A stretch of 20,856 nucleotides of DNA. It comes from Verrucomicrobia bacterium GWF2_51_19 (lineage in GTDB: Bacteria > Verrucomicrobiota > Verrucomicrobiia > Opitutales > UBA12508). Location of the stretch: positions 1 to 20,856 of the forward strand of contig MIDP01000027.1 in NCBI GenBank assembly GCA_001831095.1. Direction: 5' to 3'. The notes beneath the pieces were generated by a model. The model was not told the origin of the DNA, searched no databases, and saw nothing but the letters and a program-made list of their open reading frames with translations. Of the stretch, positions 1 to 14,215 are shown piece by piece. The translations under genes were made by a program, and so were the position numbers. The stretch's first letter is position 1. Every line of letters begins with the position of its first letter.

Positions 1-20
1 TTATAAGTATTTTTTTCATA

Positions 21-60
21 ATAAGACCATTGCAAAATGTCCCACGGCGTTCTCGTCGTT
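21..60. repeat. Half copy of family-1 palindromic element (one arm only)
   Basis: ataAGACCATTGCAAAATGTCCcacGGCGTTCTCGTCGTTc matches the reverse complement of the right arm of the 9753-9874 copy (GACCCGTGCAAAATGTCCtctagcGGCGTTCTCGTCGTTC), including a 17/17 run. It fills the whole gap between the kinase stop (60-62) and a minus-strand ATG at 17-19. Confidence 0.7.
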
Positions 61-1961
61 CATAAAGGTATGCGTATTGTGAACAAAGTGCCTTCGCCTT
101 CTCTACTTTTACACTGAATGTCTCCCTTGTGCAAGTCTATACAGTGGCGAACGCAGAAGAGGCCAACGCCGACACCCTTAATGTTGCCAACGTTCGAGCC
201 GCGTGAAAACATCTTGAAGAGGCCTGATCGGTCTTTTTCAGGAATGCCGATGCCGCTGTCCTCGACCTCTATATATAGGGTCTTTTCTTTTACGGACCAG
301 CGCAAAACGACCGTTCCATTGGAATATTTGCAGGCATTGCTCAAGAGGTTGTTTAAAATGTATTGAAGGAGGTTGGAATCAAGGGTGTAGAGGCCATCCG
401 ATGGGCCTTCGAGGCGAATGTCGCGGTTGGGAAATGCGCCAGAGAGGGTCGTCTTGAGCGCCTGCAATAACTTTGAAAAATCGGTTAACTGGGGTGAAAA
501 GGTCAACTTGCCTGCCTCGATGCGACCGATGAGCAAGACGTCGTCCATGAGTTGTGTGATGCGTTTGATGCCAAGTTTAACGGAATCGAACTGTTCCTCA
601 CGTTCCGGGGCCTGCAAACGCTCCCAATAGTGTTCCAAGAGGTCTGTGGCGCTCTGGATCGATGTCAGCGGCGTCCTGAATTCGTGTGAAACCATGTTGA
701 CAAAGACCCCCTTTAAGCGGCTCAACTCGCGTTCGTGCTCGAGGGCGGTGATCAAGCTGGCTTCGGCTTCTTTGCGCTTGGAGAGGTCATGGATGGTGAG
801 GGCGACGCGTTTGCTCTTGCGGAAATCAAAGACGGTTGACGCGACCTCGACCGGAATGAGGTTGCCGTTGTCGACGCGTTGGTGGAGGGTCTCGCGAATG
901 CCGGGTGTTAGGACCTGTTCCTGGATCCATGCGTCCTTATGAAGGGCCTGTGCGGCGACGGCCTGTGGGTTAACGTCAAAGAGAGTCAGGGACAGCAGCT
1001 TTTCCACAGAACAACCAAAATGCTCGCAAGCAGCCTTGTTGGCATAGACAAAACGCATGTTGTCTTCGGGCGAAACCCAAACAACGGCCTCCGAACTGCA
1101 ATCAATAGTCGTTTTAAAACAAACAATCTCTTCCTCGGCACGCATGCGTTCAAACATCTCAGCCTCGAGGTTCTTGTTGACATTTGCCAACTGACGCGTG
1201 CGGCGCTGGACACGGTTTTCGAGCGTTTCACTGAGCGCCTGGTATTGTTCTTGGAGCTGTTTCTGGGCGGAAATGTCGGTCAAACGGCCCAAGACCATCG
1301 ACGCGTTGCCACGGGCATTTCTAGCCACTACCTGCGCTTGACAAAGACAATGGATGATGCCCCTGTCGCTCTCTATTTTTAATTCGGTATTGCACGACGT
1401 GTCTGTCTCGATGAGGGCCTTCAAGGCTCGTTCCAGTGGCACACCGTCTTGGAATTGTTTTAAAAACGTCGACAGGCTCAACTCAAAGACCTCTTTCCCA
1501 ATCCAGTTAAAGAAATTGTGGGTAACTGTCACGGCGTCTGTTTTGATTTCCCACTTCCAAAAAACATCGGGCGAGTCCATCAGAAATTGGCTCGTCACCT
1601 TCCATTCGTTGTAAGCATGATTGAGGGCCGCCTCGTAGGCCAGGTCTTCATGGAGCGTCAAGATGTTTTGGCCCAATGGGTAAGCGCGCATGCGGACTTT
1701 CTTGTCGCCAACAGTGTAATGAAACTGGCCCGGCTTGCCCGACTGCAAACAACGATGCAGCTCAAACTCGATCGGCACTTCGGAATGGAATAGAGCAGCC
1801 ATGTTGGGTGCGGCCCGCAATGCATTGCAATCTTTGCCAAAAAGCCCCTCAAATGCCTCATCGCACGCGAGCACGCGGAATGCCAGGCCTTTACATGCCT
1901 CCAAAATACACAGTCCCTCAACGCGCTCCGCCGACAGTTTTTTGCCAAGATCCGATAGCAT
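60..1961 (-). CDS. Soluble multi-PAS sensor histidine kinase (HisKA + HATPase_c)
   Basis: 633-aa ORF. H-box MVSHEFRTPLTSI, N-box NNLLSNACKYS, G1 VEDSGIGI, G2 GVGVGLF. PAS-like segments and a coiled-coil linker (QEQYQALSETLENRVQRRTRQLANVNKNLEAE) lie upstream. No obvious transmembrane segment and no response regulator visible in the window. Confidence 0.9.
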   Translation of the reverse strand: MLSDLGKKLSAERVEGLCILEACKGLAFRVLACDEAFEGLFGKDCNALRAAPNMAALFHSEVPIEFELHRCLQSGKPGQFHYTVGDKKVRMRAYPLGQNILTLHEDLAYEAALNHAYNEWKVTSQFLMDSPDVFWKWEIKTDAVTVTHNFFNWIGKEVFELSLSTFLKQFQDGVPLERALKALIETDTSCNTELKIESDRGIIHCLCQAQVVARNARGNASMVLGRLTDISAQKQLQEQYQALSETLENRVQRRTRQLANVNKNLEAEMFERMRAEEEIVCFKTTIDCSSEAVVWVSPEDNMRFVYANKAACEHFGCSVEKLLSLTLFDVNPQAVAAQALHKDAWIQEQVLTPGIRETLHQRVDNGNLIPVEVASTVFDFRKSKRVALTIHDLSKRKEAEASLITALEHERELSRLKGVFVNMVSHEFRTPLTSIQSATDLLEHYWERLQAPEREEQFDSVKLGIKRITQLMDDVLLIGRIEAGKLTFSPQLTDFSKLLQALKTTLSGAFPNRDIRLEGPSDGLYTLDSNLLQYILNNLLSNACKYSNGTVVLRWSVKEKTLYIEVEDSGIGIPEKDRSGLFKMFSRGSNVGNIKGVGVGLFCVRHCIDLHKGDIQCKSREGEGTLFTIRIPL

Positions 1962-2110
1962 CTACGCCATTATGAACACCCGTTTTCATCATGGCAAAAC
2001 AAATTTTAAGACTGCACACAAGGTTGGCAAGTTTTGGTCGACCTATAAGGGTGGTCCATCAGAATTTCTTGCCGCCACAACTCTTTTGGGGGATAAAGGG
2101 CCAATGCTAG

Positions 2111-2141
2111 GGGGGCCTGCTTTAGTGTATCGCAGGCCCCC
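2111..2141. other. GC-rich hairpin (10-bp perfect stem, 11-nt loop) in the kinase/ankyrin intergenic region
   Basis: GGGGGCCTGC-tttagtgtatc-GCAGGCCCCC. No flanking U-tract on either strand, so the function is unknown. Confidence 0.4.
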
Positions 2142-2165
2142 ATCTCGATTGCGTGATGAAACCGC

Positions 2166-2196
2166 TGCAAAATAGCACCAAAATGCGTTTCGCGCT
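2166..2196. repeat. Truncated copy (left arm only) of family-1 palindromic element
   Basis: TGCAAAATAGCaCCAAAATGCGTTTCGCGCT matches the reverse complement of 7408-7438 with one mismatch. No matching right arm follows. Confidence 0.7.
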
Positions 2197-2251
2197 GTGG
2201 GTAGCATCGCCCATTAAACGCCCATTAAACAATGAAGTGCAACACTCGAAT

Positions 2252-2289
2252 GGAAAAAGCGTGACACGAGTTTCCCCGAGTCACGCTTT
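2252..2289 (-). terminator. Rho-independent terminator candidate for the ankyrin gene
   Basis: On the minus strand: AAAGCGTGAC-loop-GTCACGCTTT followed by TTcc (a run of 5 T including the stem end), about 65 nt downstream of the stop at 2355. Confidence 0.6.
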
Positions 2290-2354
2290 GTTCAGCTGCG
2301 TTGATCGCCTACAGCTTAAGTGTTTTTTAGAATAATATAGAAGTTATAATCGTC

Positions 2355-3536
2355 TCAGAATTCAAAGTTTAAAAACTCTTCGTAGAAAAATCCTAAAGGT
2401 GAGATAGGATCCATTTTATCATAGAACCAACCCTCAAGTGTAATTGCTTTTGTTTCCTCCACGGACCAACCCTCAAGTGTAATTGCTTTTGTTTCTGTTT
2501 CCGTTTCCATCAAGCGCCTCATCGTATTAATCACTTCTTCGCTGATATTTTGTGCGTCATTATAATCATGGTTATTCTGATTCTGACAGTAGATCGCATC
2601 CAATAATTTATCACTCTTCGCAGCAGTCTCTGTATCATCCGTCATGGCACCATTCTTCGCGGCGTATAAAATACGTATGGCTAACGAAATCGTCGAGTCT
2701 GGATTTGCGACCGACTCTTTTTCGTCGAGCGTAATGCGTAATTCCTCCGCTGCTTTTTTGCACATGCCATAAATGATGTTGTACTCTTCTGCGTAGTTGG
2801 TGAGGAGCGCTATGATGTCGTTGTGGCGTCTTTCTTGGACCAACCCCAACGCGGTTTTGCCGTGTTTATTCTGAATGTTTGGATTCGCTCCGGCTGCAAT
2901 TAAGAGCTTAGCAATTTCGGTTTGGTCCAGTATCACGGCAAGCGTCATCGCGGTGTTGCCGTTTTTATTCTGAATGTTTGGATTCGCTCCGGCTGCAATT
3001 AAGAGCTTAGCAATTTCTGTTTGGTCATCCATCATGGCAAGCCTCATCGCGGTGTTGCCGTTTTTATCCTGAATGTTTAAATCCGCTCCGGCTGCAATTA
3101 AGATCTGAACAATTTCTGTTTGGTCATTCATCACGGCAAGCGTCAGCACGGTGGAGCCGTTTTGACCCTGAATGTTTGGATTCGCTCCGGCTGCAATTAA
3201 GATCTGAACAATTTCTGTTTGGTCATCCATCACGGCAAGCCTCATCGCGGTGTTGCCGTGTTTATCCTGAATGTTTAAATCCGCTCCGGCTTTAATTAAG
3301 ATCTGAACAATCTCTGTTTGGCCCTTCATCACGGCAAACATCAGCGCGGTGTCGTTGTCGTCATCTTGCCAATTGACATAATTTTTGAGCGCGACCTCAT
3401 TATTTTTGTATGGCTCGATCAATCTGATAACTTCATTCAAATTGCCATCCTTCGCTGCATCATTCAAAGCTTTATCGGCAAAAAGCACGTTAACAGACGT
3501 TAATGTGACTGAAATAAGTAATAGATATTTTTTCAT
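2355..3536 (-). CDS. Secreted ankyrin-repeat protein
   Basis: 393-aa ORF. Sec-type N-terminus MKKYLLLISVTLTSVNVLFA. Six consecutive 33-aa ANK modules (e.g. NGNTAMRLAVMDDQTEIVQILIAAGANPNIQ). Non-ANK C-terminal ~150 aa ending in a duplicated ETKAITLEGW motif. Confidence 0.92.
   Translation of the reverse strand: MKKYLLLISVTLTSVNVLFADKALNDAAKDGNLNEVIRLIEPYKNNEVALKNYVNWQDDDNDTALMFAVMKGQTEIVQILIKAGADLNIQDKHGNTAMRLAVMDDQTEIVQILIAAGANPNIQGQNGSTVLTLAVMNDQTEIVQILIAAGADLNIQDKNGNTAMRLAMMDDQTEIAKLLIAAGANPNIQNKNGNTAMTLAVILDQTEIAKLLIAAGANPNIQNKHGKTALGLVQERRHNDIIALLTNYAEEYNIIYGMCKKAAEELRITLDEKESVANPDSTISLAIRILYAAKNGAMTDDTETAAKSDKLLDAIYCQNQNNHDYNDAQNISEEVINTMRRLMETETETKAITLEGWSVEETKAITLEGWFYDKMDPISPLGFFYEEFLNFEF
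2426..2495. repeat. 39-bp tandem duplication inside the ankyrin gene 3' region
   Basis: ACCAACCCTCAAGTGTAATTGCTTTTGTTTC occurs at 2426-2456 and 2465-2495 (31/31 identical, period 39). It encodes the duplicated ETKAITLEGW peptide. Confidence 0.9.
2851..3345. repeat. Five tandem 99-bp units (ankyrin modules), highly similar at the DNA level
   Basis: Unit starts at 2851, 2950, 3049, 3148 and 3247 (GCGGTGTTGCCGT...). Neighbouring units differ at roughly 10 of 99 positions by eye. Long shared strings include CTGAATGTTTGGATTCGCTCCGGCTGCAATTAAGA. Confidence 0.9.
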
Positions 3537-3889
3537 AATTTTTATTATTTATGTTAAAGATTTTTAAAAAACCAAAAAAGTCAAGAAGATTTTTAAAAAA
3601 TCTGCAAATTCAAGAAAGAAGTGCACCAGGCGAAAGGACAGGATGGAAGGATTGAAAAAAGAGAGGAGAGATGCAAGACTGGCGTTATATAACTGTGTAC
3701 GTCGGCACTGAATATAGCCTCGACGATTTATTGCGAAAAAGCTTGACTTTTTGTTTAAAAACTATATTAGACATTAAATACAAAAATTTGAATATTTAAA
3801 ATCATCATCAATATCCGATATTTTTTTAAAATTATCCAAAGCCGCTTTCGGGCGCAGAAGGAGTGCGCCACAAAAGGCTCTCATAGACC

Positions 3890-3967
3890 CGCCGAGCTCT
3901 CTAACGGCACATCGAGGGCGCATCGAAAAACGGATGCGCGGTAATAAAGTTTCGCTAATGATTGAGG
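3890..3967 (+). repeat. Family-2 modular repeat, copy 1 (leader block + hairpin + conserved 24-mer)
   Basis: CGCCGAGCTCTCTAACGGCaCATCGAGGGCG, then hairpin GCGCATCGaaaaaCGGATGCGC, then the 24-mer GTAATAAAGTTTCGCTAATGATTG (3941-3964). Matches the reverse complement of 20717-20856 apart from a ~62-nt indel. Confidence 0.8.
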
Positions 3968-4097
3968 CCCATAGTCGTTTTTTTGAAAACCTTTAACTTT
4001 TTTTTGAAAAAAATGTTTTCCCCTAAAGTGCTGAATGTGAATAAGTTTTGTTAAAGTTTTCCCGCGGACAGACGATTTTTTATTTTTTAACTAAATT

Positions 4098-5594
4098 TTG
4101 GAAAAACTGTGTCGATTGTGCATAAGCGTGAAAACGACACATCTTCTTCTCGGGGCCTCCCTGTGTCTAGGGGGGTCGATATGGGCTATTCAATCCATGC
4201 CCGCACTCGTCAATAATTATGGGGAAAGCGAAGTTAAACTCTCTCCTTATTTTGACGAGTGCGTCGCAGATATACACCTTCTGATTCGAAGGAGCTATCT
4301 CTGCAGCAAGCGCGACGCCGGATGCGAAATTCCGGAAACCGCCTATCGTTATTACGAGGGCATTTTTCAAGACATGATCCTTGAGACAGGCACGATGGAT
4401 TATTTTCCGGATGCCTCGGACCCAGAGGGCCATGCACTGGCGCGGTATCCATTTGAGCATACCTGGCTATGTAAAAAAACCTTCATGGGAGAACAGGGCC
4501 GAACTCAAATCGGCTCTTTTTTTGAAAACACGCTGGGCATTCAGAGCACTGAAACCGACTTTCCTGGCTTTATCGCTCTGAAACGCGGTGAAAATGGCCA
4601 TCCGGACGTCTTGGTGGTGGTCTTGCGTGGCTCACAAGCGGAATCCTTCCAGCCACTCCACGGCATGCTCGGCTCGAGTTGGCGAACCAACTACGCTGTA
4701 GGCAAAGAAAAATTACCAAAAGCGATCTTTGGATTCAAGGGTTCTATGCACTACGGCTTTTTGGAAAAAGAGCTGGCCTTTCGTCAAACGCTCTTGCACT
4801 CGATCTACGACACGATTATCAATGAGCAGGTCGACATCGACAACCTCATTATCGTCGTCACTGGACACAGCCAGGGAGGCGCGCTCGCCCAAATCACCAT
4901 CGTTGACCTCGTTAAAAACCTCGGACCGCTGCTCTTCGGCAACGACTTCGATAATGCAAAACATAACCGCTTTTATGGCTATTTTATGTCTCCAGCGCGC
5001 GTGGCTGGGTCGAAATCAACCGTCCGCCATATTCACGACCTCGTCGGTAAGCACAACATGATACGTCACAGCACCATCCACGATCCAGTGCCCAACGCTG
5101 GCATCGATCGAATCTTTGAGCGCATCGCCATACTCGATCCAATCAACGCTATCTTCGCTTACCACAACATCGGATACCTCGCTCTCGACGACAGCGGCCG
5201 CGTCCTCGAAAAAGCGCTCGCCTCAGAAGCTTCTTACCCAAATAAATATGATGAGCGCCTCTTCACCGAGTTCAACCGCGACCGCTACCTCATGGTCCAA
5301 ATCGTCAAAAATAAACTCTTCGACTCCTACAAGTGCCACCTCAAAGCTAAGGGCTGCAGCCGTCTCATGCCAAAATACCACTATTGGAGCACCAAGAGCG
5401 ACCTTAAAATGGCCAGGGCAATCTTCCGCGCTGGCCCGCTCGGCGGTCTCTATTGGATGGTTTCCTGCTGGCACTTCGGCAGTCGAGCAAACAATGAAGG
5501 CGGTTATGTTTTTGACCCCGTCCTGCCCGATAAAAATATCGACATCGCCCTCATTCGTGGTCGACTGCATAAGATGGCCAAAACTATGCCGTAA
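4098..5594 (+). CDS. Class-3 (fungal-type) lipase family alpha/beta hydrolase, probably secreted
   Basis: 498-aa ORF. Nucleophile elbow VVTGHSQGGALAQ preceded by the VVVLRGSQ block typical of Lipase_3. Start uncertain: TTG 4098, TTG 4116 or GTG 4128. GTG 4128 gives a signal-like MKTTHLLLGASLCLGGSIWA. No clear SD. Confidence 0.82.
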   Translation: MEKLCRLCISVKTTHLLLGASLCLGGSIWAIQSMPALVNNYGESEVKLSPYFDECVADIHLLIRRSYLCSKRDAGCEIPETAYRYYEGIFQDMILETGTMDYFPDASDPEGHALARYPFEHTWLCKKTFMGEQGRTQIGSFFENTLGIQSTETDFPGFIALKRGENGHPDVLVVVLRGSQAESFQPLHGMLGSSWRTNYAVGKEKLPKAIFGFKGSMHYGFLEKELAFRQTLLHSIYDTIINEQVDIDNLIIVVTGHSQGGALAQITIVDLVKNLGPLLFGNDFDNAKHNRFYGYFMSPARVAGSKSTVRHIHDLVGKHNMIRHSTIHDPVPNAGIDRIFERIAILDPINAIFAYHNIGYLALDDSGRVLEKALASEASYPNKYDERLFTEFNRDRYLMVQIVKNKLFDSYKCHLKAKGCSRLMPKYHYWSTKSDLKMARAIFRAGPLGGLYWMVSCWHFGSRANNEGGYVFDPVLPDKNIDIALIRGRLHKMAKTMP

Positions 5595-5618
5595 GACAAC
5601 TCTGGACTTTCGCCTCGA

Positions 5619-5670
5619 TCATTAGCGAAACTTTTTCTAGTGGTTCATTAGCTGAACTTTTTCTAGTGGT
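5619..5670. repeat. 26-bp tandem duplication
   Basis: TCATTAGCgaAACTTTTTCTAGTGGT (5619-5644) and TCATTAGCtgAACTTTTTCTAGTGGT (5645-5670), 24/26 identical. The first unit contains the inverted copy of the family-2 terminus TTTCGCTAATGA. Confidence 0.9.
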
Positions 5671-5693
5671 CTCAAGCATGTCTGTTGTTTTAT

Positions 5694-5761
5694 GACTCAA
5701 TGTGTGTAATTACAGCGCATCGGTTTTCCGATGCGCTGTAATAAAATTTCGCTAATGATTG
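5694..5761 (+). repeat. Family-2 modular repeat, copy 2 (perfect hairpin + 24-mer); possible terminator of the lipase gene
   Basis: 15-bp perfect stem ATTACAGCGCATCGG-tttt-CCGATGCGCTGTAAT (5709-5742), followed by the 24-mer GTAATAAAATTTCGCTAATGATTG (5738-5761). The left flank GACTCAATgtgTGTAAT resembles GAGTCAATactTGTAAT in the reverse complement of copy 3. Confidence 0.8.
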
Positions 5762-5790
5762 GTGGACCGCTTTGGCGTTTCTATTTTCTA

Positions 5791-5821
5791 TTGACATCGC
5801 GAGGTTCGCTGGCAAATTTAT
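5791..5821 (+). promoter_or_regulatory. Possible sigma-70-type promoter for tRNA-Leu
   Basis: Perfect -35 TTGACA at 5791-5796. The -10 candidates are weak and AT-rich (AATTTA/ATTTAT at 5815-5821, spacing 18-19). The tRNA 5' end is at 5835. Confidence 0.3.
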
Positions 5822-5834
5822 GTGTTATCCTTGG

Positions 5835-5919
5835 GCTGGAGTGGTGAAATTGGCAGACACGCATGATTCAGGTTCATGTGCCGAAAGGCATGGGGGTTCA
5901 ACTCCCCCCTTCAGCACCA
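5835..5919 (+). tRNA. tRNA-Leu (anticodon CAG), type II with long variable arm, CCA encoded
   Basis: Acceptor GCTGGAG/CTTCAGC (one G:U). D arm GTG-AAATTGGCAGA-CAC. Anticodon stem CATGA/TCATG with loop TTCAGGT (CAG at 5869-5871). Variable arm TGCCGAAAGGCAT. T arm GGGGG-TTCAACT-CCCCC. Discriminator A plus CCA. Confidence 0.93.
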
Positions 5920-6049
5920 ACACGGCATGAGAATACGTGTGAAAACTCGTTTTTCGCTGCGCGCAACTGCCTCACGTACCATGCGTACGCTACGGCAGAT
6001 CGTGCTCACGCAAAGCCAAGTTTTGACACTTATTCTCATGCCGTGTTGG
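5917..6049 (+). repeat. Family-1 long palindromic element, full copy
   Basis: 19-bp perfect terminal inverted repeat CCAACACGGCATGAGAATA (5917-5935) / TATTCTCATGCCGTGTTGG (6031-6049). Arms CGTTTTTCGCTGCGCGCAACTGCCTCA. Central CGTAC-catgc-GTACG at 5975-5989. About 85% identical by eye to 10174-10303 over ~100 nt. Confidence 0.85.
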
Positions 6050-7248
6050 GGGTCGATGATAATAAGAAAATCACACTTTCGGATAATATCAGTGGACAAT
6101 TGACAACGGAACAACAGTCGAAAGCATGGGCGTTTAAAGTGATTGGTGTGGGGGGCGCCGGTTGTAACACGCTGCGCTTTTTTGAGAAAAACCAGATTGG
6201 GGCCCTCGCGCTCACAGCCATCGATACCGATGCGCAGACACTGGAGTCTATTTCATTTGAAAAATTGCAGATCGGTCATGCACTCACACGCGGACTCAGC
6301 ACGGGCAACGATTTCGAGCTTGGACGAAAGGCCGCCGATGCCGACCGCAAACGCATAAAGGCCCTCTGCAAAGGTCAAGATATCATCTTTATCGTCGCAG
6401 GCCTCGGTGGCGGATTGGGAAGCTCCGCAGCATCGATCGTAGCCGAATGCGCAGTGGAACAGGGCAGCACCGTCATTGCCTTTGTCAACATGCCGTTTTC
6501 TTTCGAGGGAGGCACGCGCTACAAACAGGCCGAAAAGGGACTCATAGACCTCCGCGCCCACTGTGAGGCCGTTATTCCGCTCCCCAACGACATTTTGCTG
6601 CAGTCGCTAGATAACGCAACGACCGTCCTCGACGCCTTTGCCCGCTCCAACACCTGGATGCATAAGGGCATCTGCAGCCTCGTCAACATGCTCGTACGGC
6701 CAGGCATGATCCACGTTGACCTCGCCACCCTTCAGAAAATTTTCATCTACCGCGGCGGCAAGACACTCTTTGGTCTAGCATCGGGCGAAGGCAACAACGC
6801 CCTCAAAGACGCCATTAAGAGCTTTTCGAAGTGTCCCCTACTCTCCACGCCCGAACACGCACGTAAGGCCGATGCGCTCGTTGTCAGCATAACCAGCGAC
6901 AACAGCCTCACCCTCGACTCCGTTAAAGAAATCCTCACTGCCATCTCCGACCTCTTTGGCGGTAAGGAAAACGTCGTCCTCGGCACCACCCTCGATCCCT
7001 CATTCGAGAAAAAGATCGAAATTGTCGTTCTCGGCACCACTCTCTTCCAGGCCTACCAGCAGAACGTCATTCGCCTCCAGCCACAAGAATCAAAGGCCCA
7101 AACGGACCTGCCTCTATTTTCGGAAAACGCCACCCTGCTCCCAACCGAAGACCGAGGCGTCTTTGAAGCCACCTCTCAGGCCCTCTTCAACGGTGAAGAC
7201 CTCGATGTCCCCTCTTATATACGCAAGGGCATCAAGTTACACGTGTAA
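6043..7248 (+). CDS. ftsZ: Cell-division protein FtsZ (divergent nucleotide-pocket motifs)
   Basis: FKVIGVGGAGCNTL, IDTDAQTL, AGLGGGLGSSAASIVA, MPFSFEGGTRYKQAEKGL, PLPNDILL, and the C-terminal anchor peptide DLDVPSYIRKG. The track ORF start (ATG 5863) lies inside the tRNA and the repeat, so it is rejected. Candidate starts are GTG 6043, TTG 6046 or TTG 6100. TTG 6100 leaves the usual ~12 residues before the VIGVGG strand. Confidence 0.85.
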   Translation: MLGVDDNKKITLSDNISGQLTTEQQSKAWAFKVIGVGGAGCNTLRFFEKNQIGALALTAIDTDAQTLESISFEKLQIGHALTRGLSTGNDFELGRKAADADRKRIKALCKGQDIIFIVAGLGGGLGSSAASIVAECAVEQGSTVIAFVNMPFSFEGGTRYKQAEKGLIDLRAHCEAVIPLPNDILLQSLDNATTVLDAFARSNTWMHKGICSLVNMLVRPGMIHVDLATLQKIFIYRGGKTLFGLASGEGNNALKDAIKSFSKCPLLSTPEHARKADALVVSITSDNSLTLDSVKEILTAISDLFGGKENVVLGTTLDPSFEKKIEIVVLGTTLFQAYQQNVIRLQPQESKAQTDLPLFSENATLLPTEDRGVFEATSQALFNGEDLDVPSYIRKGIKLHV

Positions 7249-7322: not shown

Positions 7323-7447
7323 AGGCCGATGCAAAATAGATGCAAAAATGTGGCTTTGCGCGAGCATGAATGCCGTAGCGTACATAGAGGTACGTGAGGC
7401 AGTCAGCGGAGCGCGAAACGCATTTTGGCGCTATTTTGCATCGGCCT
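7323..7447 (-). repeat. Family-1 long palindromic element, full copy, inverted orientation
   Basis: 16-bp terminal inverted repeat AGGCCGATGCAAAATA / TATTTTGCATCGGCCT. Reverse complement reads ...CCAAAATGCGTTTCGCGCTCCGCTGACTGCCTCACGTACC..GTACGCTACGGCA.. Central CGTAC-atagag-GTACG at 7379-7394. Confidence 0.85.
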
Positions 7448-7546: not shown

Positions 7547-7642
7547 AAAGCGGGCGGAAGTCCGGGAAGAGGTCTCTCGATCGGATTTTGTAAACTGTTG
7601 ATGGAGAACGACTTGTGATATTTGGCATGCGATGTTGGCATT

Positions 7643-7658: not shown

Positions 7659-7672
7659 AAAGAAAGAGGCGT

Positions 7673-9589
7673 ATGAGCAAGAAAAAAGTTATCGGTATTG
7701 ACCTAGGAACGACAAATTCCTGCATGGCCATTTTGGAAGGCGGCAAGCCTGTCGTCATTCCCAACGCAGAGGGCGCCCGCACGACACCCTCTATCGTCGC
7801 CTTTACCAAAACGGGCGAAAGGCTCGTGGGTCAGGCAGCCAAGCGGCAAGCCATCACCAATCCTCACAACACGATCTTTTCTGCAAAACGACTGATCGGT
7901 CGTAAATTTGCCGAAGTTCAAAATACGGTCAAAAAACTGCCGTACAGCGTCGTCGAAGGCAAAAACGGTGATGCTTGGATCGAGTGCACCGTCGCCGGCA
8001 AAAAAGAAAAGTTTGCGCCCGAACAGATCTCTTCTATGGTCCTAGCTAAATTGAAGGCCGACGCGGAAGCCTACCTCGGTGAAGCCGTTACACAGGCCGT
8101 CATCACGGTTCCGGCTTACTTTAACGACGCCCAACGCCAGGCAACTAAGGACGCTGGCACGATCGCCGGCCTCGAGGTTTTACGCATCATCAACGAGCCC
8201 ACAGCCGCGTCTCTCGCCTACGGTCTCGACAAGAAAAAAGACGAAAAGATCGCCGTGTACGACCTCGGCGGCGGCACCTACGACATCTCCATTCTCGAGA
8301 TCGGTGACGGCGTCTTCGAAGTGAAGGCCACCAACGGCGACACCCAACTCGGCGGTGACGATTTCGATGAGGCCATCATTCATTGGCTCGCGGAAACCTT
8401 TCAAAAGGAAAACGGCATCGACCTCCGCAAAGACGCCATGGCCCACCAAAGGCTTAAGGAAGAGGCAGAAAAGGCAAAAATCGCCCTCTCATCGGCTCAA
8501 CAGGTCGACATCAACCTTCCCTTTATCACAGCGGACGCCAGCGGCCCAAAACACCTCAACGTCGTCCTCACGCGCGCCAAGATGGAACAGATCTGCGACA
8601 GCTTTTTCGAGCGCACCGTTGCTCCATTCAAGGCCTGCTTAAAGGATTCCGGGCTGAACGTTAAAGAACTCGATGAATTGGTGCTTGTTGGCGGAATGAC
8701 ACGTATGCCAAAGGTCGTTGAAACGGCCCACAAACTCGTTGGGAAGACCCCCCACCAAGGCGTCAACCCAGATGAAGTCGTCGCCGTCGGTGCCTCCATT
8801 CAGGGCGGCGTCCTCCAGGGCGATGTCAGCGACATTCTCCTCCTCGACGTCACCCCACTCACCCTCGGCATCGAGACTGCTGGCGGCGTCTCGACTCCCA
8901 TGATCGAGCGCAACACCACCATCCCAACCAAGAAAACACAGGTTTTCAGCACCTATGCCGATAACCAAACTGCTGTCGACGTCAAAGTCCTCCAGGGAGA
9001 ACGCCCCATGGCCAGTCAAAACAAGATGCTCGGCACCTTCCGACTCGACGGCATTCCTATGGCCCCACGCGGCATTCCCCAAATCGAGGTTACCTTTGAT
9101 ATCGACGCAAACGGCATCCTCCACGTCACCGCTAAGGACGTAGGTACCGGCAAAGATCAGAAAATCACCATCAGCGGCGCATCCGGCCTCTCCGAAAGCG
9201 AAATTGAACGCCTCAAAAAAGAAGCCGAAGCCAACGCTGAGTCCGACAAGAAAATTAAGGAAGGCGTCGAGGCTCGCAATGCCCTCGATTCTATGGTCTA
9301 TCAGTGTGAAAAACAACTCAAGGAACTCGGCGATAAGGCCTCCGAAGAGAAGAAAAAGGACGTCACTAACGCCATCGACATCGCTAAGGATACCCTCAAA
9401 AATACCAACTCAACCGCCTCTGAGCTGACTTCCTCTAACGAGAAATTGACCCTCGCATTCCAGGCCCTCGCCCAGGAAATCTACGCAAAGGCCGCTTCCT
9501 CCCCTCAACAAGAACAACCCTCTTCCCAACCCAAAGATAACAACGTCGTCGACGCTGACTTTGAGGTAGTCGATGAGGAAAAGAAGTAA
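7673..9589 (+). CDS. dnaK: Molecular chaperone DnaK (Hsp70)
   Basis: [47 protein letters not shown], acidic C-terminus. ATG 7673 is preceded by AGAGG. The TTG 7622 extension in the track is rejected. Confidence 0.98.
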
Positions 9590-9595
9590 TTTGGA

Positions 9596-9622
9596 AGAAC
9601 CTTTTATAGAATAAAAGGTTCT
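9596..9622 (+). terminator. AT-rich hairpin just after the dnaK stop (weak terminator candidate)
   Basis: AGAACCTTTT-atagaat-AAAAGGTTCT. No U-tract follows. Confidence 0.3.
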
Positions 9623-9649
9623 CCCAAACCCTCTCCCAAACACTTTTTT

Positions 9650-9686
9650 GCGAAACACAAAAAGGCCTCGCCTTTTTGTGTTTCGC
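9650..9686 (+). terminator. 17-bp perfect-stem hairpin downstream of dnaK (terminator candidate)
   Basis: GCGAAACACAAAAAGGC-ctc-GCCTTTTTGTGTTTCGC. A T-run lies upstream (cacTTTTTT) and another ~10 nt downstream (aaagTTTTTT). Confidence 0.5.
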
Positions 9687-9752
9687 ATGAGAAAGTTTTT
9701 TGGAAGGGGCTTTTTGAAACTTTCCCTAAACAACTATAACATAACCAACGAC

Positions 9753-9874
9753 AAAGACCTGGGCAAAATGGGCCTATAGCCAGGCCCGAGGAGCGAGGGC
9801 GACAGGAGCCTACTTGAGGTAGGTGACTTAGCCCGAACGACGAGAACGCCGCTAGAGGACATTTTGCACGGGTC
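9753..9874 (-). repeat. Family-1 long palindromic element, divergent full copy, ends 11 nt before the groES ATG
   Basis: Termini AAAGACCTGGGCAAAATG (left) and CATTTTGCACGGGTC (right), 13/15 complementary. The left end equals the left end of the 10174-10303 copy (AAAGACCTatGCAAAATG). Central CCTAC-ttgag-GTAGG at 9809-9823, exactly midway. Confidence 0.75.
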
Positions 9875-9884
9875 TAACATTACT

Positions 9885-10175
9885 ATGAGCAATATAAAAC
9901 CAATAGGAGAGCGCGTCCTCGTGAAATTGTTAAACGAGGCCGAGCAAGTGAAGGGTGGAATCATCATTCCAGATTCCGCCAAAGAAAAACCAAACAAGGC
10001 TACTGTCGTGGCCTTAGGATCCGGTCGTCGCGACGAAAACGGCAAACACATTCCGTTTGAAGTCAAGGTGGGCGATCAGGTCTTGATCAGCAAGTACGGA
10101 GGAACTGAAGTCAAAATCGACAACGAGACGTTCATGTTGCTCCGGGAGGATGACATTCTAGGTACTATCGCATAA
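9885..10175 (+). CDS. groES: Co-chaperonin GroES
   Basis: [36 protein letters not shown]..., 96 aa from ATG 9885. The TTG 9864 in the track lies inside the repeat terminus. Confidence 0.97.
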
Positions 10176-10303
10176 AAGACCTATGCAAAATGCCGTGAAA
10201 GCTCGTTTCGCGCTCCGCTGACTGCCTCACGTACCACTCGTACGCTACGGCAGCTCGTGCTCGCGCAAATCCAAGCTTTGACAGCATTTATCATAGGTCT
10301 TTT
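10174..10303 (+). repeat. Family-1 long palindromic element, full copy, between groES and groEL
   Basis: 12-bp terminal inverted repeat AAAAGACCTATG (starts inside the groES TAA) / CATAGGTCTTTT (10292-10303). Arm CGTTTCGCGCTCCGCTGACTGCCTCA. Central CGTAC-cactc-GTACG at 10230-10244. Confidence 0.88.
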
Positions 10304-10341
10304 CAAAAAATTCAAGAAACTATAACTGTAACTTAAAATAG

Positions 10342-12018
<1,677 letters not shown>

Positions 12019-12027
12019 AAAAAACGC

Positions 12028-12051
12028 AAGGGGGACTCAAACATCCCCCTT
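12028..12051 (+). terminator. Hairpin after groEL (terminator candidate)
   Basis: AAGGGGGA-ctcaaaca-TCCCCCTT, 10 nt after the stop. An A-run precedes it, but no U-run follows on the + strand. Confidence 0.4.
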
Positions 12052-12088
12052 ACCCCATCAGCATGACCAACAGGCCATGCACCCATTA

Positions 12089-12123
12089 CATTTGCGTTCG
12101 TCCTAACATGATGAACGCAAATG
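12089..12123 (+). terminator. Second hairpin in the groEL-malQ spacer
   Basis: CATTTGCGTTC-13 nt loop-GAACGCAAATG (11-bp perfect stem) followed by GTTT. Confidence 0.35.
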
Positions 12124-12144
12124 GTTTAAGGCAACAAGCGCACA

Positions 12145-13653
12145 ATGACTTCTATGAGACTATTTAACACGGAATTAGACCGCAAGGCTGGCATGTTATT
12201 GCCGATATCGAGTTTGCCATCGGGGCAAGGAATCGGCTGCTTTGACGAGCACGCGCGGCGTTTTATAGACGTTTTGAAGGAGGCGCGATTGGCCTATTGG
12301 CAGCTGTGTCCCTTGGGGCCGACGGGCTATGGAGACTCGCCGTATCAGTGTTTTTCAGCCTTTGCGGGCAACCCGTACTTCATCGACCTGGGTGAGTTTT
12401 TACAAACAGGGCTGTTGACAGAAGAAGAGGTGATGCCTCTGCGTGGCTTGCCTGAAAACGCAGTTGATTACGGCCATCTCTACCAACACTTTTGGGGCAT
12501 TTTGCGAATAGCGCACCGGCGGTTTTCAGAGACCGGAGACAAGGCATTTGAGAATTTCCAAAAAGTCGAAAAGAAGTGGCTGCTGCCCTACGCGACGTAC
12601 CGCGCGCTCAAGGGTCATTTTGAAGAAAAATGCTGGATTGAGTGGCCGCAAGAGTTTCGGAGCTTTCAAAAGGCGAGCGCTTCCAGCCTCTGTCGAGAAC
12701 TGAAGGAAGATATTGATTTCCACCAGTTTACGCAATTTTTCTTTTTCAAGCAATGGAAGGCGCTGAAGGCTTACGCGAAGGAGCATGGCATTGCGATCAT
12801 TGGCGACATCCCAATTTTTGCTGGCCTCGACAGCGCTGATGTTTGGACGCATTCTGAGCTTTTCCAAATTAAGAAAGACCTCCCAACACACGTTGCGGGC
12901 GTCCCACCCGATTATTTTTCGCCGGAAGGCCAACTGTGGGGCAACCCTCTCTTTAACTGGAAGGCGCTCGAGAACAGCCACTTCGACTGGTGGATTGAGC
13001 GTATCGAGCACAACTTCCGCATGTTCGACGTCGTCCGCCTCGACCACTTCCGCGGCTTTTACGACTATTGGAAAGTCCCGTACGGCGCTCCAAATGCGAT
13101 CAAGGGTGAATGGGAAAAGGGGCCCGGTCTGGCCTTTTTCCAGGCGATTCACAACAAGATTCCATCAGCGCGTTTGATCGCCGAGGACCTCGGTTACCTT
13201 TCGAAAGAGGTGGTTGAGCTACGCAAGGCCGTCGGACTGCCTGGAATGGCCATTTTGCAGTTCGCGTTTGGCGGAGATTCAGAAAACATCTACCTTCCTC
13301 ACAACCTCGACCCGCACACGGTCATTTATTCAGGATCGCACGACAACGACACGTCTATAGGCTGGTATGCTGGCTCTAACGAGTCTACACGCGATCACCT
13401 GCGACGTTATTTGCGCATCAACGGCAGTGAAGTCGCCTGGGACCTCATTCGATCGGCCTATGCGTCGGTTGCCAACTGGTGCATTTTCCCAATGCAGGAC
13501 TTTCTCAGCCTCCCGAGCTGGGCTCGCATCAATACGCCAGGAAAGGCACAAGGAAACTGGGCCTGGCGCATGACGCCTCACGACCTCGACCTCTTCCGCT
13601 ACAAAAATACTGAATACCTACAAATGTTGGCCGACTTATACGGTAGGAGGTAA
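12145..13653 (+). CDS. malQ: 4-alpha-glucanotransferase (amylomaltase, GH77)
   Basis: 502-aa ORF. YGDSPYQCFSAFAGNPYFID, VVRLDHFRGF, LIAEDLGYL, YSGSHDNDT. Start could be ATG 12145, 12154 or 12193. Confidence 0.93.
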   Translation: MTSMRLFNTELDRKAGMLLPISSLPSGQGIGCFDEHARRFIDVLKEARLAYWQLCPLGPTGYGDSPYQCFSAFAGNPYFIDLGEFLQTGLLTEEEVMPLRGLPENAVDYGHLYQHFWGILRIAHRRFSETGDKAFENFQKVEKKWLLPYATYRALKGHFEEKCWIEWPQEFRSFQKASASSLCRELKEDIDFHQFTQFFFFKQWKALKAYAKEHGIAIIGDIPIFAGLDSADVWTHSELFQIKKDLPTHVAGVPPDYFSPEGQLWGNPLFNWKALENSHFDWWIERIEHNFRMFDVVRLDHFRGFYDYWKVPYGAPNAIKGEWEKGPGLAFFQAIHNKIPSARLIAEDLGYLSKEVVELRKAVGLPGMAILQFAFGGDSENIYLPHNLDPHTVIYSGSHDNDTSIGWYAGSNESTRDHLRRYLRINGSEVAWDLIRSAYASVANWCIFPMQDFLSLPSWARINTPGKAQGNWAWRMTPHDLDLFRYKNTEYLQMLADLYGRR

Positions 13654-13654
13654 G

Positions 13655-14101
13655 ATGGAGTCTAGCGAACTAATCAAAGAGGCCTACAAAGAAGCGCAAA
13701 TTGGTCTGGCTGAAGGCGGCCTGCCCATTGGCTCCGTGCTTTTTAGAAACGAGAAAATCATTGCCCGGGGTCACAATCGTCGCGTCCAGGACGACGACCC
13801 TCTTGAACACGCCGAAATCAACTGTCTGCGCAATGCCGGCCGCATGAATTCCTATCAAGACTGCATCCTCGTCTCCACTCTTATGCCCTGCTACCTCTGC
13901 GCCGGGGCGATCGTCCAATTCAAGATCCCAGAGGTCATCGTCGGCGAAAGTGCGAATTTCGAAGGAGCCGAAGCCTTTCTTCGCGCCAACGGAGTCAAGC
14001 TAACCAATCTCAACGACTCTCTGTGCACAGAGCTCATGGCCACCTTTATTAAGGAGCAGCCATTACTATGGAACGAGGACATCGGGGTTCCGCCGGCTTA
14101 A
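13655..14101 (+). CDS. CMP/dCMP-type zinc deaminase, yeast Fcy1-like cytosine deaminase family
   Basis: 148 aa. Zinc motifs HAEINCL and PCYLCAGAI. End-to-end resemblance to the Fcy1 layout, including GGLPIGSVL, RGHNRR and C-terminal FIKEQPLLWNEDIG. AGGAGG SD. ATG lies 1 nt after the malQ stop. Confidence 0.8.
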   Translation: MESSELIKEAYKEAQIGLAEGGLPIGSVLFRNEKIIARGHNRRVQDDDPLEHAEINCLRNAGRMNSYQDCILVSTLMPCYLCAGAIVQFKIPEVIVGESANFEGAEAFLRANGVKLTNLNDSLCTELMATFIKEQPLLWNEDIGVPPA

Positions 14102-14215
14102 TGAAGGCAATAAGTTCGTTGGCCATCGGATTGGACTGTCCTCACGTACCGCACGTACGCTCCGGCAGCCCAACCTCGGCCGCCTGCTTCTTGCCTCCAT
14201 TGAGTCCGGCGGAAC
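14087..14215. repeat. Family-1 long palindromic element, divergent full copy, between convergent genes
   Basis: Termini GTTCCGCCGG (overlaps the last deaminase codons) / CCGGCGGAAC. Arms partly self-complementary (TTAATGAAGGCAATAAG.. vs ..CTTCTTGCCTCCATTGA). Shared core CCTCACGTACC-GCA-CGTACGCTCCGGCAG with central CGTAC-cgcac-GTACG at 14145-14159. Confidence 0.7.

What the first reader, a model, noticed from the sequence alone, without database searches (positions are those of the whole stretch)
21..14215. Unclassified family of ~120-130 nt imperfect palindromic intergenic elements (5 full + 2 half copies in 20.8 kb)
Full copies lie at 5917-6049, 7323-7447 (inverted), 9753-9874 (inverted, divergent), 10174-10303 and 14087-14215 (divergent). 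Half copies lie at 21-60 and 2166-2196. Each full copy has 10-19 bp terminal inverted repeats, often built around ATGCAAAAT/ATTTTGCAT. Each has partly self-complementary arms (e.g. CGTTTCGCGCTCCGCTGACTGCCTCA) and a central 5-bp stem-loop placed exactly at the midpoint. All copies are intergenic. Four sit flush against a gene 3' end: kinase stop 60, tRNA CCA 5919, groES stop 10175 and deaminase stop 14101. No transposase is nearby. This density and placement resemble REP/BIME, Correia or MITE-type elements, but I do not recognise the sequence as any family I know. Possible roles are transcript-end stabiliser, terminator or attenuator, or a non-autonomous mobile element.
Basis: seen in the sequence. 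Interest (0 to 1): 0.75.

Follow-up and report, generated by a model that had tools for sequence, protein, structure and literature searches.

The report
Dispersed hairpin repeats at gene ends
The window carries a real family of about 130-base hairpin-forming repeats that litter the genome of an uncultured Opitutae (Verrucomicrobia) bacterium, usually starting at the stop codon of the gene in front, and they belong to a wider, apparently undescribed group of such hairpins that also occurs in alphaproteobacterial plasmids, a betaproteobacterial genome bin and phage contigs.

Summary
All five full copies and both half copies are real, and a 24-nt mini-hairpin made of the family termini lies at 10341-10364. 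The window comes from the MAG 'Verrucomicrobia bacterium GWF2_51_19' (Opitutae). About 170 kb of the same organism holds more than 35 further copies in four subfamilies.

- **Structure:** each copy is one long hairpin, with 18 of 42 base pairs showing compensatory changes.
- **Junctions:** no target-site duplication was found.
- **Placement:** 19 of 21 A/B/D copies begin at the stop codon (or tRNA CCA end) of the upstream gene, in one orientation.
- **Evidence of insertion:** nested, truncated and internally deleted copies exist.
- **Wider family:** the apex motif TCA-C-stem-loop-stem-G-CTNC also tops 130-150-nt hairpins in about 20 phage contigs, 36 alphaproteobacterial plasmids and a Burkholderiales bin. 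These too mostly abut upstream stop codons.
- **Databases:** there is no Rfam match.
- **Strand asymmetry:** one strand is always pyrimidine-rich and the other always folds better.

Best reading: a non-autonomous mobile hairpin element of the REP/MITE class, moved by an unidentified enzyme acting in trans, possibly through a single-stranded hairpin, and co-transcribed with the upstream gene. I rate it a new variant of a known kind. Identity with the rhizobial RIME/Sm repeats could not be tested.

The parts
22..61 (+). Half copy: left arm of subfamily C (TAAGACCATTGCAAAATGTCC..CGTTCTCGTCGTTC). It fills the 40-nt gap between the kinase stop (60-62, minus strand) and the start codon of the next minus-strand gene (CAT at 17-19).
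   Evidence: The neighbouring gene is seen in L020.
2158..2196 (+). Fragment: left arm of subfamily B, ending after CGTTTCGCGCT.
   Evidence: I5: 94% complementary to 7410-7444; D12.
5917..6049 (+). Full copy of subfamily A with divergent but self-complementary outer arms. It starts at the CCA end of tRNA-Leu (5835-5919). Apex at 5972-5993.
   Evidence: I6: 38-nt arms, 87%; 119 bits.
7323..7447 (-). Full copy of subfamily B between ftsZ and dnaK. It lies 69 nt after the ftsZ stop and is the exception in orientation. Apex about 7371-7399.
   Evidence: I14; 153.5 bits.
9753..9876 (-). Full copy of subfamily C with a compensated apex stem (CCTAC/GTAGG). Its model-strand 5' end lies about 10 nt from the groES ATG (9886). 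Apex at 9805-9826.
   Evidence: (43 bits, E=5e-7, not in the training set).
10174..10303 (+). Full copy of subfamily A inside the groES-groEL spacer. It starts directly after the groES stop TAA (10173-10175). Apex at 10227-10248.
   Evidence: I9; 137.9 bits.
10341..10364 (.). Mini-hairpin TAAGACCATT-TTGG-AATGGTCTTA, made only of the family termini, just upstream of groEL. Probably an internally deleted remnant.
   Evidence: Comparable deleted copies: L019 6776-6848 and L009 646-721.
14087..14215 (+). Full copy of subfamily D. Its left outer arm overlaps the last codons and the stop (14099-14101) of the deaminase gene. Its right arm carries GCCTGCTTCTTGCC, which is shared with phage copies. Apex at 14142-14163.
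   Evidence: (52.7 bits).

Best explanation
These are copies of a non-autonomous mobile hairpin element, in the same general class as REP/REPIN and MITE repeats. The element has multiplied in the genome of an uncultured Opitutae bacterium.

Anatomy:
- Each copy is a single imperfect hairpin of about 125-135 nt.
- Termini in subfamilies A, B and C: (T)AAGACCnnTGCAAAAT / ATTTTGCAnnGGTCTT(A).
- Apex in all subfamilies: a 5-bp stem-loop flanked by the unpaired bases TCA on the 5' side and CTNC on the 3' side.
- A CGTT motif lies about 20 nt 5' of the apex.

Shown:
- The family is dispersed at unrelated housekeeping loci.
- Copies insert into one another, get truncated and lose their centres.
- No target-site duplication is made.
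- In subfamilies A, B and D, one particular end abuts the stop codon of the upstream gene, so the element is co-oriented with that gene and must be transcribed with it.
- The two arms change together.
- The same apex sits on hairpins in other phyla and in phages.

Inferred:
- Movement depends on an enzyme encoded elsewhere that recognises the folded apex.
- The lack of duplications, the strand asymmetry and the concerted change of the arms suggest a single-stranded hairpin intermediate, as used by HUH/Y1 transposases (RAYT, IS200/IS605) or by integron attC recombination.
- Once inserted, the element forms a long RNA hairpin at the 3' end of the upstream message, or in the 5' leader for subfamily C. 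There it can stabilise, process or attenuate the transcript.
- Compaction of spacers and selection against the more stable opposite-strand hairpin in mRNAs may sharpen the placement and orientation.
For: - Source organism: five assemblies are 99.95-99.99% identical to the window, so the fetched loci are copies within one genome.
- Copy number: the model finds about 35 distinct copies in 182 kb, and the 10 kb to the right of the window holds 3 more.
- Covariation: 93.5% of cells are paired, against 31-45% when partners are slid. 18 of 42 pairs change on both sides, including 12 of 15 in the outer helix, and 0 of 500 shuffles reach this.
- No duplication: no direct repeat of 2-9 bp at any boundary offset.
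- Placement: 19 of 21 A/B/D copies have their 5' end at distance -1 to -29 from an upstream stop or tRNA end, in sense. Distances on the other side are mostly tens to hundreds of nt.
- Insertion and decay: nested insertions at L018 3373-3503 and 4736-4858; centre deletions and solo termini.
- Wider family: the apex motif gives 1 genome hit, 16 metagenome hits and 3+21 phage-contig hits, all inside long hairpins, where about 7 chance hits were my rough estimate for the looser pattern. There are 68 places in 36 alphaproteobacterial plasmids.
- Apex stems covary: CGTAC, CCTAC, CGCAT, CGTGC, GGAC.
- Phage copies: many abut upstream structural genes. 10 of 10 checked lie after capsid, terminase or tail genes or an unassigned ORF, with the stop 50-59 nt 5' of the apex.
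- Change at one site: orthologous copies in two related phages differ by compensated changes.
- Empty site: related phages lack the element after the capsid gene.
- Strand asymmetry: the model strand has C>G in 31 of 31 and T>A in 28 of 31 elements, with unskewed flanks. The opposite strand folds better in 33 of 35 and 18 of 19 copies.
- Transcription: small RNAs matching the apex of a family member are listed for Thalassospira lucentensis (PMC6413936, Table 5).
- Literature: REP-type repeats are known to sit within 20 bp of upstream ORF ends and to supply stop codons, and Opitutus terrae is rich in them (PMC3733652).
Against: - No mobilising enzyme was found. No transposase domain is encoded in the window, and a crude HUH/RAYT motif screen of about 170 kb found nothing.
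- No insertion polymorphism exists among the five assemblies.
- No close relative exists for an exact empty-site comparison, because the nearest FtsZ is only about 45% identical.
- The active strand is unresolved. The better-folding strand is antisense to the upstream gene, yet the IS608-type rule (my reasoning) would put the active strand on the lagging-strand template, which is the sense strand of co-oriented genes.
- Subfamily C does not follow the stop-codon rule. About 5 of 8 copies are antisense and several abut start codons.
- One alphaproteobacterial copy (L046) is flush but antisense.
- Compensatory change at one orthologous phage site fits a host-useful structure as well as it fits a selfish element.
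Confidence: 0.6

Rival explanations
1. It is a classical MITE: a deletion derivative of an insertion sequence, moved by a DDE transposase that binds the terminal inverted repeats and makes staggered cuts.
For: Conserved 16-25-bp terminal inverted repeats in subfamilies A-C. The size is typical of MITEs. Many near-identical copies. The termini loosely recall IS6-family ends; this rests on my memory only and was not tested.
Against: - No target-site duplication of any length, although the copies are young at 85-95% identity.
- Strong orientation bias, which symmetric ends would not give.
- Termini differ completely between lineages while the apex is conserved.
- No IS with these ends was found in the sequence sampled.
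Confidence: 0.12
2. It is mainly a host-selected RNA element, such as a 3'-end stabiliser, RNase III-type processing site or attenuator. It would be spread and kept because it tunes expression within operons, and mobility would be secondary or extinct.
For: - Sense orientation directly after stop codons, including inside the groES-groEL operon and after phage capsid genes.
- Compensatory change at an orthologous phage site.
- Small RNAs from both arms near the apex in Thalassospira.
- Conserved internal loops.
Against: - The strand present in the mRNA is the one that folds less well and has pyrimidine-rich loops.
- There is no U-tract in most phage copies and no terminator call by the scan.
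- Nested, truncated and decaying copies look like junk.
- Subfamily C sits in other positions and the other orientation.
Confidence: 0.2
3. It is an attC-like recombination site of an integron-type or other tyrosine-recombinase system: a folded single strand placed after each gene cassette.
For: Imperfect 60-140-nt palindromes directly after stop codons in a fixed orientation, strand asymmetry, and conserved unpaired bases. These resemble attC behaviour as I know it.
Against: - The flanking genes are housekeeping genes (tRNA-Leu, ftsZ, dnaK, groES/EL, rplT, rbfA), not cassettes.
- The termini do not fit RYYYAAC/GTTRRRY (read directly).
- The conserved part is the apex, not the base.
- No integrase lies nearby.
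Confidence: 0.03
4. It is a single-strand initiation or priming signal (sso/ssi-like hairpin) used when one DNA strand is exposed, in phages, plasmids and chromosomes.
For: - Strand-specific folding advantage across all lineages.
- Presence on phages and large plasmids.
- The better-folding strand carries NAGCGT at the apex, which recalls the CS-6 TAGCGT of ssoA origins (my memory, not tested).
Against: - Dozens of copies per genome at about 1 per 5 kb are not needed for priming.
- The T of TAGCGT is not conserved.
- Nested and decaying copies.
- No link to rolling-circle replication genes was seen.
Confidence: 0.05

Closest known systems
REP / BIME elements and REPINs (mobilised by RAYT, a Y1 HUH transposase)
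   Same: - High-copy extragenic palindromes close to upstream ORF 3' ends that can supply the stop codon.
- G.T pairs and hairpin folding.
- No target-site duplication.
- Present in Opitutae (PMC3733652).
- On the better-folding strand, the apex reads G-N-A-G followed directly by a 5-bp stem-loop and then TGA, which recalls the GTAG tag plus hairpin plus 3-nt tail.
   Different: - REP units are 20-40 nt and fold individually, and REPINs are two such units in inverted order. Here the arms do not fold on their own (z -0.3 and +0.2) and there is a single small hairpin at the tip.
- The tag position N varies (T, G or A).
- No RAYT was found.
MITEs such as the Neisseria Correia element, enterobacterial ERIC/IRU and pneumococcal RUP
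   Same: Imperfect palindromes of 100-150 nt with terminal inverted repeats. They are intergenic, co-transcribed, non-coding and multi-copy.
   Different: Those elements make target-site duplications (TA for Correia and RUP, from my knowledge) and insert in either orientation. This family shows no duplication and a strong orientation rule. No sequence resemblance was seen when I compared the termini with the consensus sequences I recall.
Integron attC sites (e.g. Vibrio cholerae repeats)
   Same: Imperfect palindromes of similar length placed right after stop codons in a fixed orientation. One strand is favoured for folding, and there are conserved unpaired bases.
   Different: attC conserves the base (R and L boxes) and varies at the tip, whereas here the tip is conserved and the base varies. 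The flanking genes are housekeeping genes and no integrase is present.
Rhizobial intergenic repeats (RIME1/2, Sm-1 to Sm-5, A/B/C palindromes of Sinorhizobium meliloti)
   Same: Palindromic intergenic repeats of about 100-150 nt in Hyphomicrobiales, the group where the phage-type relatives are most frequent on plasmids. They are reported as conserved in sequence and structure, with unknown function (PMC2573895).
   Different: Unknown. The paper giving the RIME sequences is not held. No S. meliloti plasmid was among the 36 plasmid records that matched.

Membership tests
REP / REPIN (RAYT-associated) | A unit of 20-40 nt that is itself an imperfect palindrome; a REPIN is two such units in inverted orientation. 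| tested here: not met
   The left and right arms fold no better than shuffles (z -0.33 and +0.24), while the whole element gives z -5.7 to -8.1.
REP / REPIN (RAYT-associated) | A conserved GTAG (or CGTC) tetranucleotide at one foot of the hairpin. | tested here: inconclusive
   The apex on the opposite strand reads G-[T/G/A]-A-G directly 5' of the 5-bp stem. The second base is not conserved.
REP / REPIN (RAYT-associated) | A RAYT gene flanked by copies in the same genome. | not testable with these tools
   Only about 170 kb of the genome could be fetched. A crude HUH/YxxNP motif screen found only a GNAT acetyltransferase.
REP / REPIN (RAYT-associated) | Extragenic, close to the 3' ends of upstream ORFs. 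| tested here: met
   19 of 21 A/B/D copies abut an upstream stop codon or tRNA end.
MITE (DDE-transposase derived) | Terminal inverted repeats. | tested here: met
   AAGACCnnTGCAAAAT / ATTTTGCAnnGGTCTT in subfamilies A-C.
MITE (DDE-transposase derived) | A target-site duplication of fixed length. | tested here: not met
   No excess of identical flanking k-mers for k=2-9 at boundary offsets -4 to +6 in 30 copies.
MITE (DDE-transposase derived) | A parent insertion sequence with the same ends. | not testable with these tools
   Solo termini were found, but none flank an ORF in the sampled loci. The full genome could not be scanned.
Integron attC | An R'' box RYYYAAC and an R' box GTTRRRY at the base of the hairpin. 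| tested here: not met
   The termini read (T)AAGACC and GGTCTT(A).
Integron attC | An array of promoterless cassettes next to an integrase. | tested here: not met
   The flanking genes are tRNA-Leu, ftsZ, dnaK, groES, groEL, malQ and tadA. No integrase is present.
Any Rfam RNA family | A covariance-model match. | tested here: not met
   In the window, only the tRNA reaches a gathering score. Nothing overlaps the elements at E<=1 in L003, L006, L010, L016, L023-L026, L037, L045 and L046, apart from chance miRNA-precursor hits to long hairpins.
Intrinsic (Rho-independent) terminator | A short G+C-rich stem-loop followed by a U-tract. | tested here: inconclusive
   The scan calls none of the full copies and only the mini-hairpin at 10342-10365. 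A/B copies end in 2-5 T. Phage copies mostly lack a T-run.
Rhizobial RIME / Sm repeats | Sequence identity to the published consensus. | not testable with these tools
   The source paper is not held and repeat features are not in the plasmid annotation table.

The most novel reading that the evidence does not exclude
The window family is the Verrucomicrobia branch of a cross-phylum class of hairpin elements. The class is defined by a conserved folded apex (TCA / 5-bp stem-loop / CTNC), a CGTT motif about two helical turns away, and strand-asymmetric loops. An as-yet unidentified enzyme that reads the folded single strand would recognise these elements. It would place them, without target duplication and in one orientation, at the ends of open reading frames in bacteria, megaplasmids and phages. 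That would be a system parallel to, but distinct from, REP/RAYT and attC/IntI.
Probability: 0.3. Interest if true: 0.8.

Novelty: new variant of a known kind. Interest (0 to 1): 0.6.

Why it matters
Small hairpin repeats are common, but few families have a known way of moving, and very few are shared between phyla.

- Here a single short folded motif links repeats in Verrucomicrobia, Alpha- and Betaproteobacteria and phage contigs.
- The elements obey an unusually strict rule: one end at a stop codon, one orientation, no duplication.
- If a dedicated enzyme reads this apex, it would be a new single-strand DNA recombination system and a possible tool.
- If the element acts as RNA, it is a portable module that sets relative expression inside operons, for example between groES and groEL or after phage capsid genes.
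- Practically, these repeats cause wrong gene calls. The 461-aa 'FtsZ' ORF runs through a tRNA and a repeat. They probably also break metagenome assemblies of this lineage.

Tried and rejected
- **Rfam.** Searches at gathering and at E<=1 on the window and 13 related loci found nothing relevant.
- **Literature by sequence.** Searches with apex strings returned only primers and unrelated text, except the Thalassospira small-RNA table.
- **blastn of the window copy.** Only a chance 22-nt hit against plasmids. Phage-type copies found nothing in the GenBank phage collection.
- **Empty sites.** The nearest FtsZ relatives are about 45% identical, so no close genome exists. Five assemblies of the same organism are identical at all copies.
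- **RAYT/HUH screen.** A motif screen of the sampled loci gave one hit, which was a GNAT acetyltransferase.
- **Outward promoter or terminator.** The consensus scan gives no support. The -35-like TTGACA in the right arm of subfamily A is absent from B-D.
- **Hammerhead ribozyme.** Suggested by CTGATGAG in L024, but there is no Rfam match.
- **REP dimer.** Rejected because the arms do not fold alone.
- **CGTC-type REP.** Rejected because that type requires its own 8-9-bp stem next to the tag.
- **Mutational-skew origin of the strand asymmetry.** Rejected because the 600-nt flanks are unskewed.
- **A simple count of G.T versus A.C mismatches.** Within the Opitutae copies this is not clearly asymmetric (41 vs 50). 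The asymmetry lies mainly in the loop composition and in the folding energies.
Full report
**Where the window comes from.** The DnaK and FtsZ proteins of the window are recorded under 'Verrucomicrobia bacterium GWF2_51_19', on a contig of 20,857 bp, and under an 'Opitutae bacterium' MAG. The same stretch occurs at 99.95-99.99% identity in an ENA metagenome contig, two Logan assemblies, GCA_003530575.1 and the JGI metagenome Ga0209417. The nearest FtsZ relatives in 5.8 billion proteins, from Opitutaceae, Cerasicoccus and Ruficoccus, are only about 45% identical. The organism is therefore an isolated lineage. Genes in the window are a PAS histidine kinase, an ankyrin-repeat protein, a class-3 lipase, tRNA-Leu, ftsZ, dnaK, groES, groEL, malQ, a tadA-like deaminase, an aminotransferase, a MatE pump, a permease, an M48 peptidase, xseB and dciA. 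None is a transposase.

All seven stated copies are present. The repeat finder recovers them without prior knowledge. A covariance model built from 17 copies finds the untrained divergent copy at 9750-9880 with E=5e-7. Whole elements fold far better than shuffled sequence (z -5.7 to -8.1). Each arm alone does not (z about 0), so an element is one hairpin and not a pair of smaller palindromes. A further 24-nt perfect hairpin made only of the family termini lies at 10341-10364, just before groEL.

**The family within this genome.** An exact scan for the apex, CCTCACGTACC-N4-5-GTACGCTNCGGCA, found 16 metagenome loci. Fourteen of them belong to this same organism. The model then found about 35 distinct copies in 182 kb, and the 10 kb to the right of the window holds three more.

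Four subfamilies can be told apart:
- A: 10174 and 5917
- B: 7323 and the fragment at 2158
- C: 9753 and the half copy at 22
- D: 14087

A, B and C share the termini (T)AAGACCnnTGCAAAAT / ATTTTGCAnnGGTCTT(A). All four share the apex. The parts in between differ but stay paired.

On a structure-independent MAFFT alignment, 93.5% of cells are paired, against 31-45% when partners are slid. Of 42 pairs, 18 show changes on both sides, including 12 of the 15 pairs of the outer helix, and no shuffle out of 500 reaches these values. Single copies carry several compensated changes at once. L010 3861, for example, has GACTG/CAGTC, GCCAAAT/ATTTGGC and ATGG/CCAT. Even the lengths of the terminal A-run and T-run match in 12 of 19 copies (read).

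**Signs of insertion and decay.**
- A D-type copy sits inside a C-type copy (L018 4736-4858). It interrupts that copy two bases after its CGTT motif.
- A C-type copy sits inside a degenerate A-type copy next to a tRNA.
- L019 6776-6848 has lost its centre between two CGGGC direct repeats. L009 646-721 and the window mini-hairpin are similar.
- Solo termini and half copies are common.
- No direct repeat of 2-9 bp flanks the copies at any boundary offset. This argues against a classical staggered-cut transposase.

**Placement and orientation.** I call the strand that reads TCAC...GCTNC the model strand. In 19 of 21 A/B/D copies whose context can be read, the 5' end of the model strand overlaps or touches the stop codon of a gene on the same strand, or the CCA end of a tRNA. 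The distances are -1 to -29. Distances on the 3' side are mostly tens to hundreds of bases. With random orientation alone, 19 or more of 21 has a probability of about 1e-4 (my calculation).

The stop codon is usually the TAA formed by a T and the terminal A-run. A T precedes the A-run in 16 of 20 A/B copies, but an A follows the T-run in only 8 of 19 (read). GroES keeps a normal C-terminus (...DDILGTIA), so that copy lies exactly after the natural stop and inside the groES-groEL operon.

Subfamily C behaves differently. About 5 of 8 copies are antisense to their neighbours. Several have the same end within 2-12 nt of a start codon of a gene reading away from them. These are window 22 next to CAT at 17-19, window 9876 next to the groES ATG at 9886, and L012 3102.

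**A wider family.** The strict apex pattern also hit three sequences with unrelated arms:
- a 6-kb contig of a 'Roseateles' bin, with the element between murJ and a transglutaminase-like gene followed by hda and pcnB, which looks like a normal betaproteobacterial chromosome region;
- a metagenome contig, L016;
- three IMG/VR contigs.

A looser pattern, TCACGTACC-N3-6-GTACGCTCC, gave 21 IMG/VR loci. By my rough estimate about 7 hits would arise by chance. All 21 lie at the tip of 130-150-nt hairpins. Five contigs carry two copies.

These are real phages, with P22-type and HK97-type capsid, terminase and tail genes. In at least 13 of 21 loci the upstream gene ends 50-59 nt before the apex, which is at the foot of the hairpin, and in sense. 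The upstream genes are major head protein (five loci), large terminase (two), tail (two), baseplate or structural (one) and one without a PHROG match (L023).

A phage copy used as query matched 68 places in 36 alphaproteobacterial plasmids or chromids at 77-88% identity. The hosts include Sphingobium, Shinella, Phyllobacterium, Agrobacterium, Rhizobium, Ensifer, Novosphingobium, Bosea and Aminobacter, and almost all matches are unannotated. The Sphingobium example is again flush and in sense. The Phyllobacterium example is flush but antisense.

In the 32-sequence alignment the only invariant columns are T, C, A, C before the apex stem and G, C, T, (N), C after it. The stem itself covaries: CGTAC/GTACG, CCTAC/GTAGG, CGCAT/ATGCG, CGTGC/GCACG and GGAC/GTCC. 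Other shared modules are:
- CGTT, or a near variant, 19-21 nt 5' of TCAC in most lineages;
- TGCAAA(A)TGG on the left against CCATTTT(C/T) on the right, with a conserved C.T mismatch;
- GCCTGCTTC(C)TTGCC in the right arm of both the window D copy and phage L035.

Two related phages, L041 and L043, whose capsid genes end LKFGE* and LKFGA*, carry the element at the same place. Their outer stems differ by compensated changes. In L041 the gene ends on a stop codon supplied by the element. Phages whose capsid proteins are 57-58% identical lack the element after the capsid gene. One of them has a 66-nt spacer with a small hairpin.

**Strand asymmetry.** The model strand has C>G in 31 of 31 elements and T>A in 28 of 31, with mean skews of -0.15 and -0.13. 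The 600 nt on either side show no such skew. The unpaired positions are therefore pyrimidines on the model strand and purines on the other strand.

The other strand folds better in 33 of 35 Opitutae copies (mean -68 vs -58 kcal/mol as RNA) and in 18 of 19 phage copies, by up to 21 kcal/mol. It also folds better with DNA parameters. A plain count of G.T against A.C mismatches within the Opitutae copies is not clearly one-sided (41 vs 50). The effect comes from loop composition and, in remote members, from wobble pairs.

The strand carried by the upstream gene's mRNA is thus the one that folds less well. No explanation I have fully accounts for this.

**Known families.**
- Rfam 15 has no match at E<=1 on the window or on 13 related loci.
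- The closest described class is REP/REPIN. According to Di Nocera et al. 2013 (PMC3733652), REPs lie within 20 bp of upstream ORF ends, can provide stop codons, often show G.T pairs, are abundant in Opitutus terrae, and are linked to RAYT or TIR-flanked RAYT-like genes.
- The present elements fail the unit definition, because the arms are not palindromes. They resemble REPs only in that the apex on the better-folding strand reads G-N-A-G, stem-loop, T-G-A.
- They fail the MITE definition on target-site duplication.
- They fail the attC definition on box sequences and on context.
- Rhizobial RIME and Sm repeats could not be compared, because the source paper is not held.

**Transcription.** One published data set bears on this. 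A small-RNA study of Thalassospira lists TTCGGTGCTCACGTACTTTTAG and TGCGCTCCGATGCGCGTGAACC as the 5p and 3p products of a 'miRNA' precursor present at two loci (PMC6413936, Table 5). These are the two sides of the apex on the model strand, with a wobble in the stem. At least one member is therefore transcribed and yields short fragments from both arms.

**How it most likely works.**

Shown:
- a dispersed, decaying, self-nesting family of hairpins;
- no duplication at the junctions;
- one end anchored at ORF boundaries;
- arms that change together;
- an apex conserved across phyla.

Inferred:
- An enzyme encoded elsewhere recognises the folded apex and moves the element. The intermediate is probably single-stranded, which would explain the absence of duplications and the strand-specific features. 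It would also explain the concerted changes in the arms, because repair of mismatches within a folded strand either reverts a change or copies it to the other arm.
- After insertion the element is transcribed with the upstream gene as a long hairpin. Loss of spacer DNA brings the stop codon to its foot, as seen in L041.
- The orientation rule may come from the insertion mechanism or from selection against the more stable opposite-strand hairpin in messages.

I put 0.6 on the general statement and about 0.3 on the specific HUH-type single-strand route. A mainly regulatory RNA role (0.2) and a classical MITE (0.12) are the main rivals.

**Verdict.** The family by itself would be an ordinary new member of the hairpin-repeat class. 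Three things raise it to a new variant worth following: the conserved apex shared with phages and other phyla, the strict placement rule without duplication, and the universal strand asymmetry. The caveat is that part of the wider family may already carry a name in the rhizobial literature.

Noticed in passing
window 3681-3970; inverted copy from 20717 to beyond the window end; partial copies at 5612-5634 and 5715-5761: A second, unrelated dispersed repeat of about 290 nt. It contains the hairpin GCGCATCG-nnnn-CGATGCGC, the box TAATAAAGTTTCGCTAATGATTGAGG, and promoter-like TTGACT...TATATT boxes. It often occurs as inverted pairs in long intergenic regions, with many copies in L017, L015, L008, L018 and L004.
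   Followed up: partly
window 5863-7248: The longest FtsZ ORF (461 aa, as called in two databases) starts inside tRNA-Leu and runs through the repeat at 5917-6049. The real start must lie near 6043-6100, and NCBI aa. The repeat therefore causes a wrong gene call.
   Followed up: partly
window 2748-3368: Five tandem 99-bp units (69-88% identical) lie inside the 393-aa ankyrin-repeat gene. They are coding ankyrin repeats, not a non-coding array. Together with a class-3 lipase and the very divergent core proteins, they hint at a host-associated lifestyle.
   Followed up: no
window 9638-9698 and 9714-9742: A conventional terminator-like hairpin with flanking A/T runs follows dnaK. A sigma-70-like promoter match lies just upstream of the C-type copy, which would put that copy in the groES 5' leader, ending about 10 nt before the ATG ([I10], 6, 49).
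   Followed up: no
L024 1304-1319 and 1481-1496: A 16-nt direct repeat, GGGGAGGGGCTAGGCA, brackets one phage copy of the hairpin. It is the only case seen that looks like a flanking duplication. The second copy in the same contig has none.
   Followed up: no
L023 2530-3321: A sub-threshold group I intron match (38 bits, gathering score 50, E=1e-6) lies inside the P22-type coat protein gene of a phage contig that also carries the hairpin.
   Followed up: no
L006 343-360, L014 2353-2380, window 17-28: Solo termini of the family lie directly at start codons. In L006 the ATG of the terminus ...TTGAAAAATG appears to serve as the start codon of the downstream gene.
   Followed up: partly
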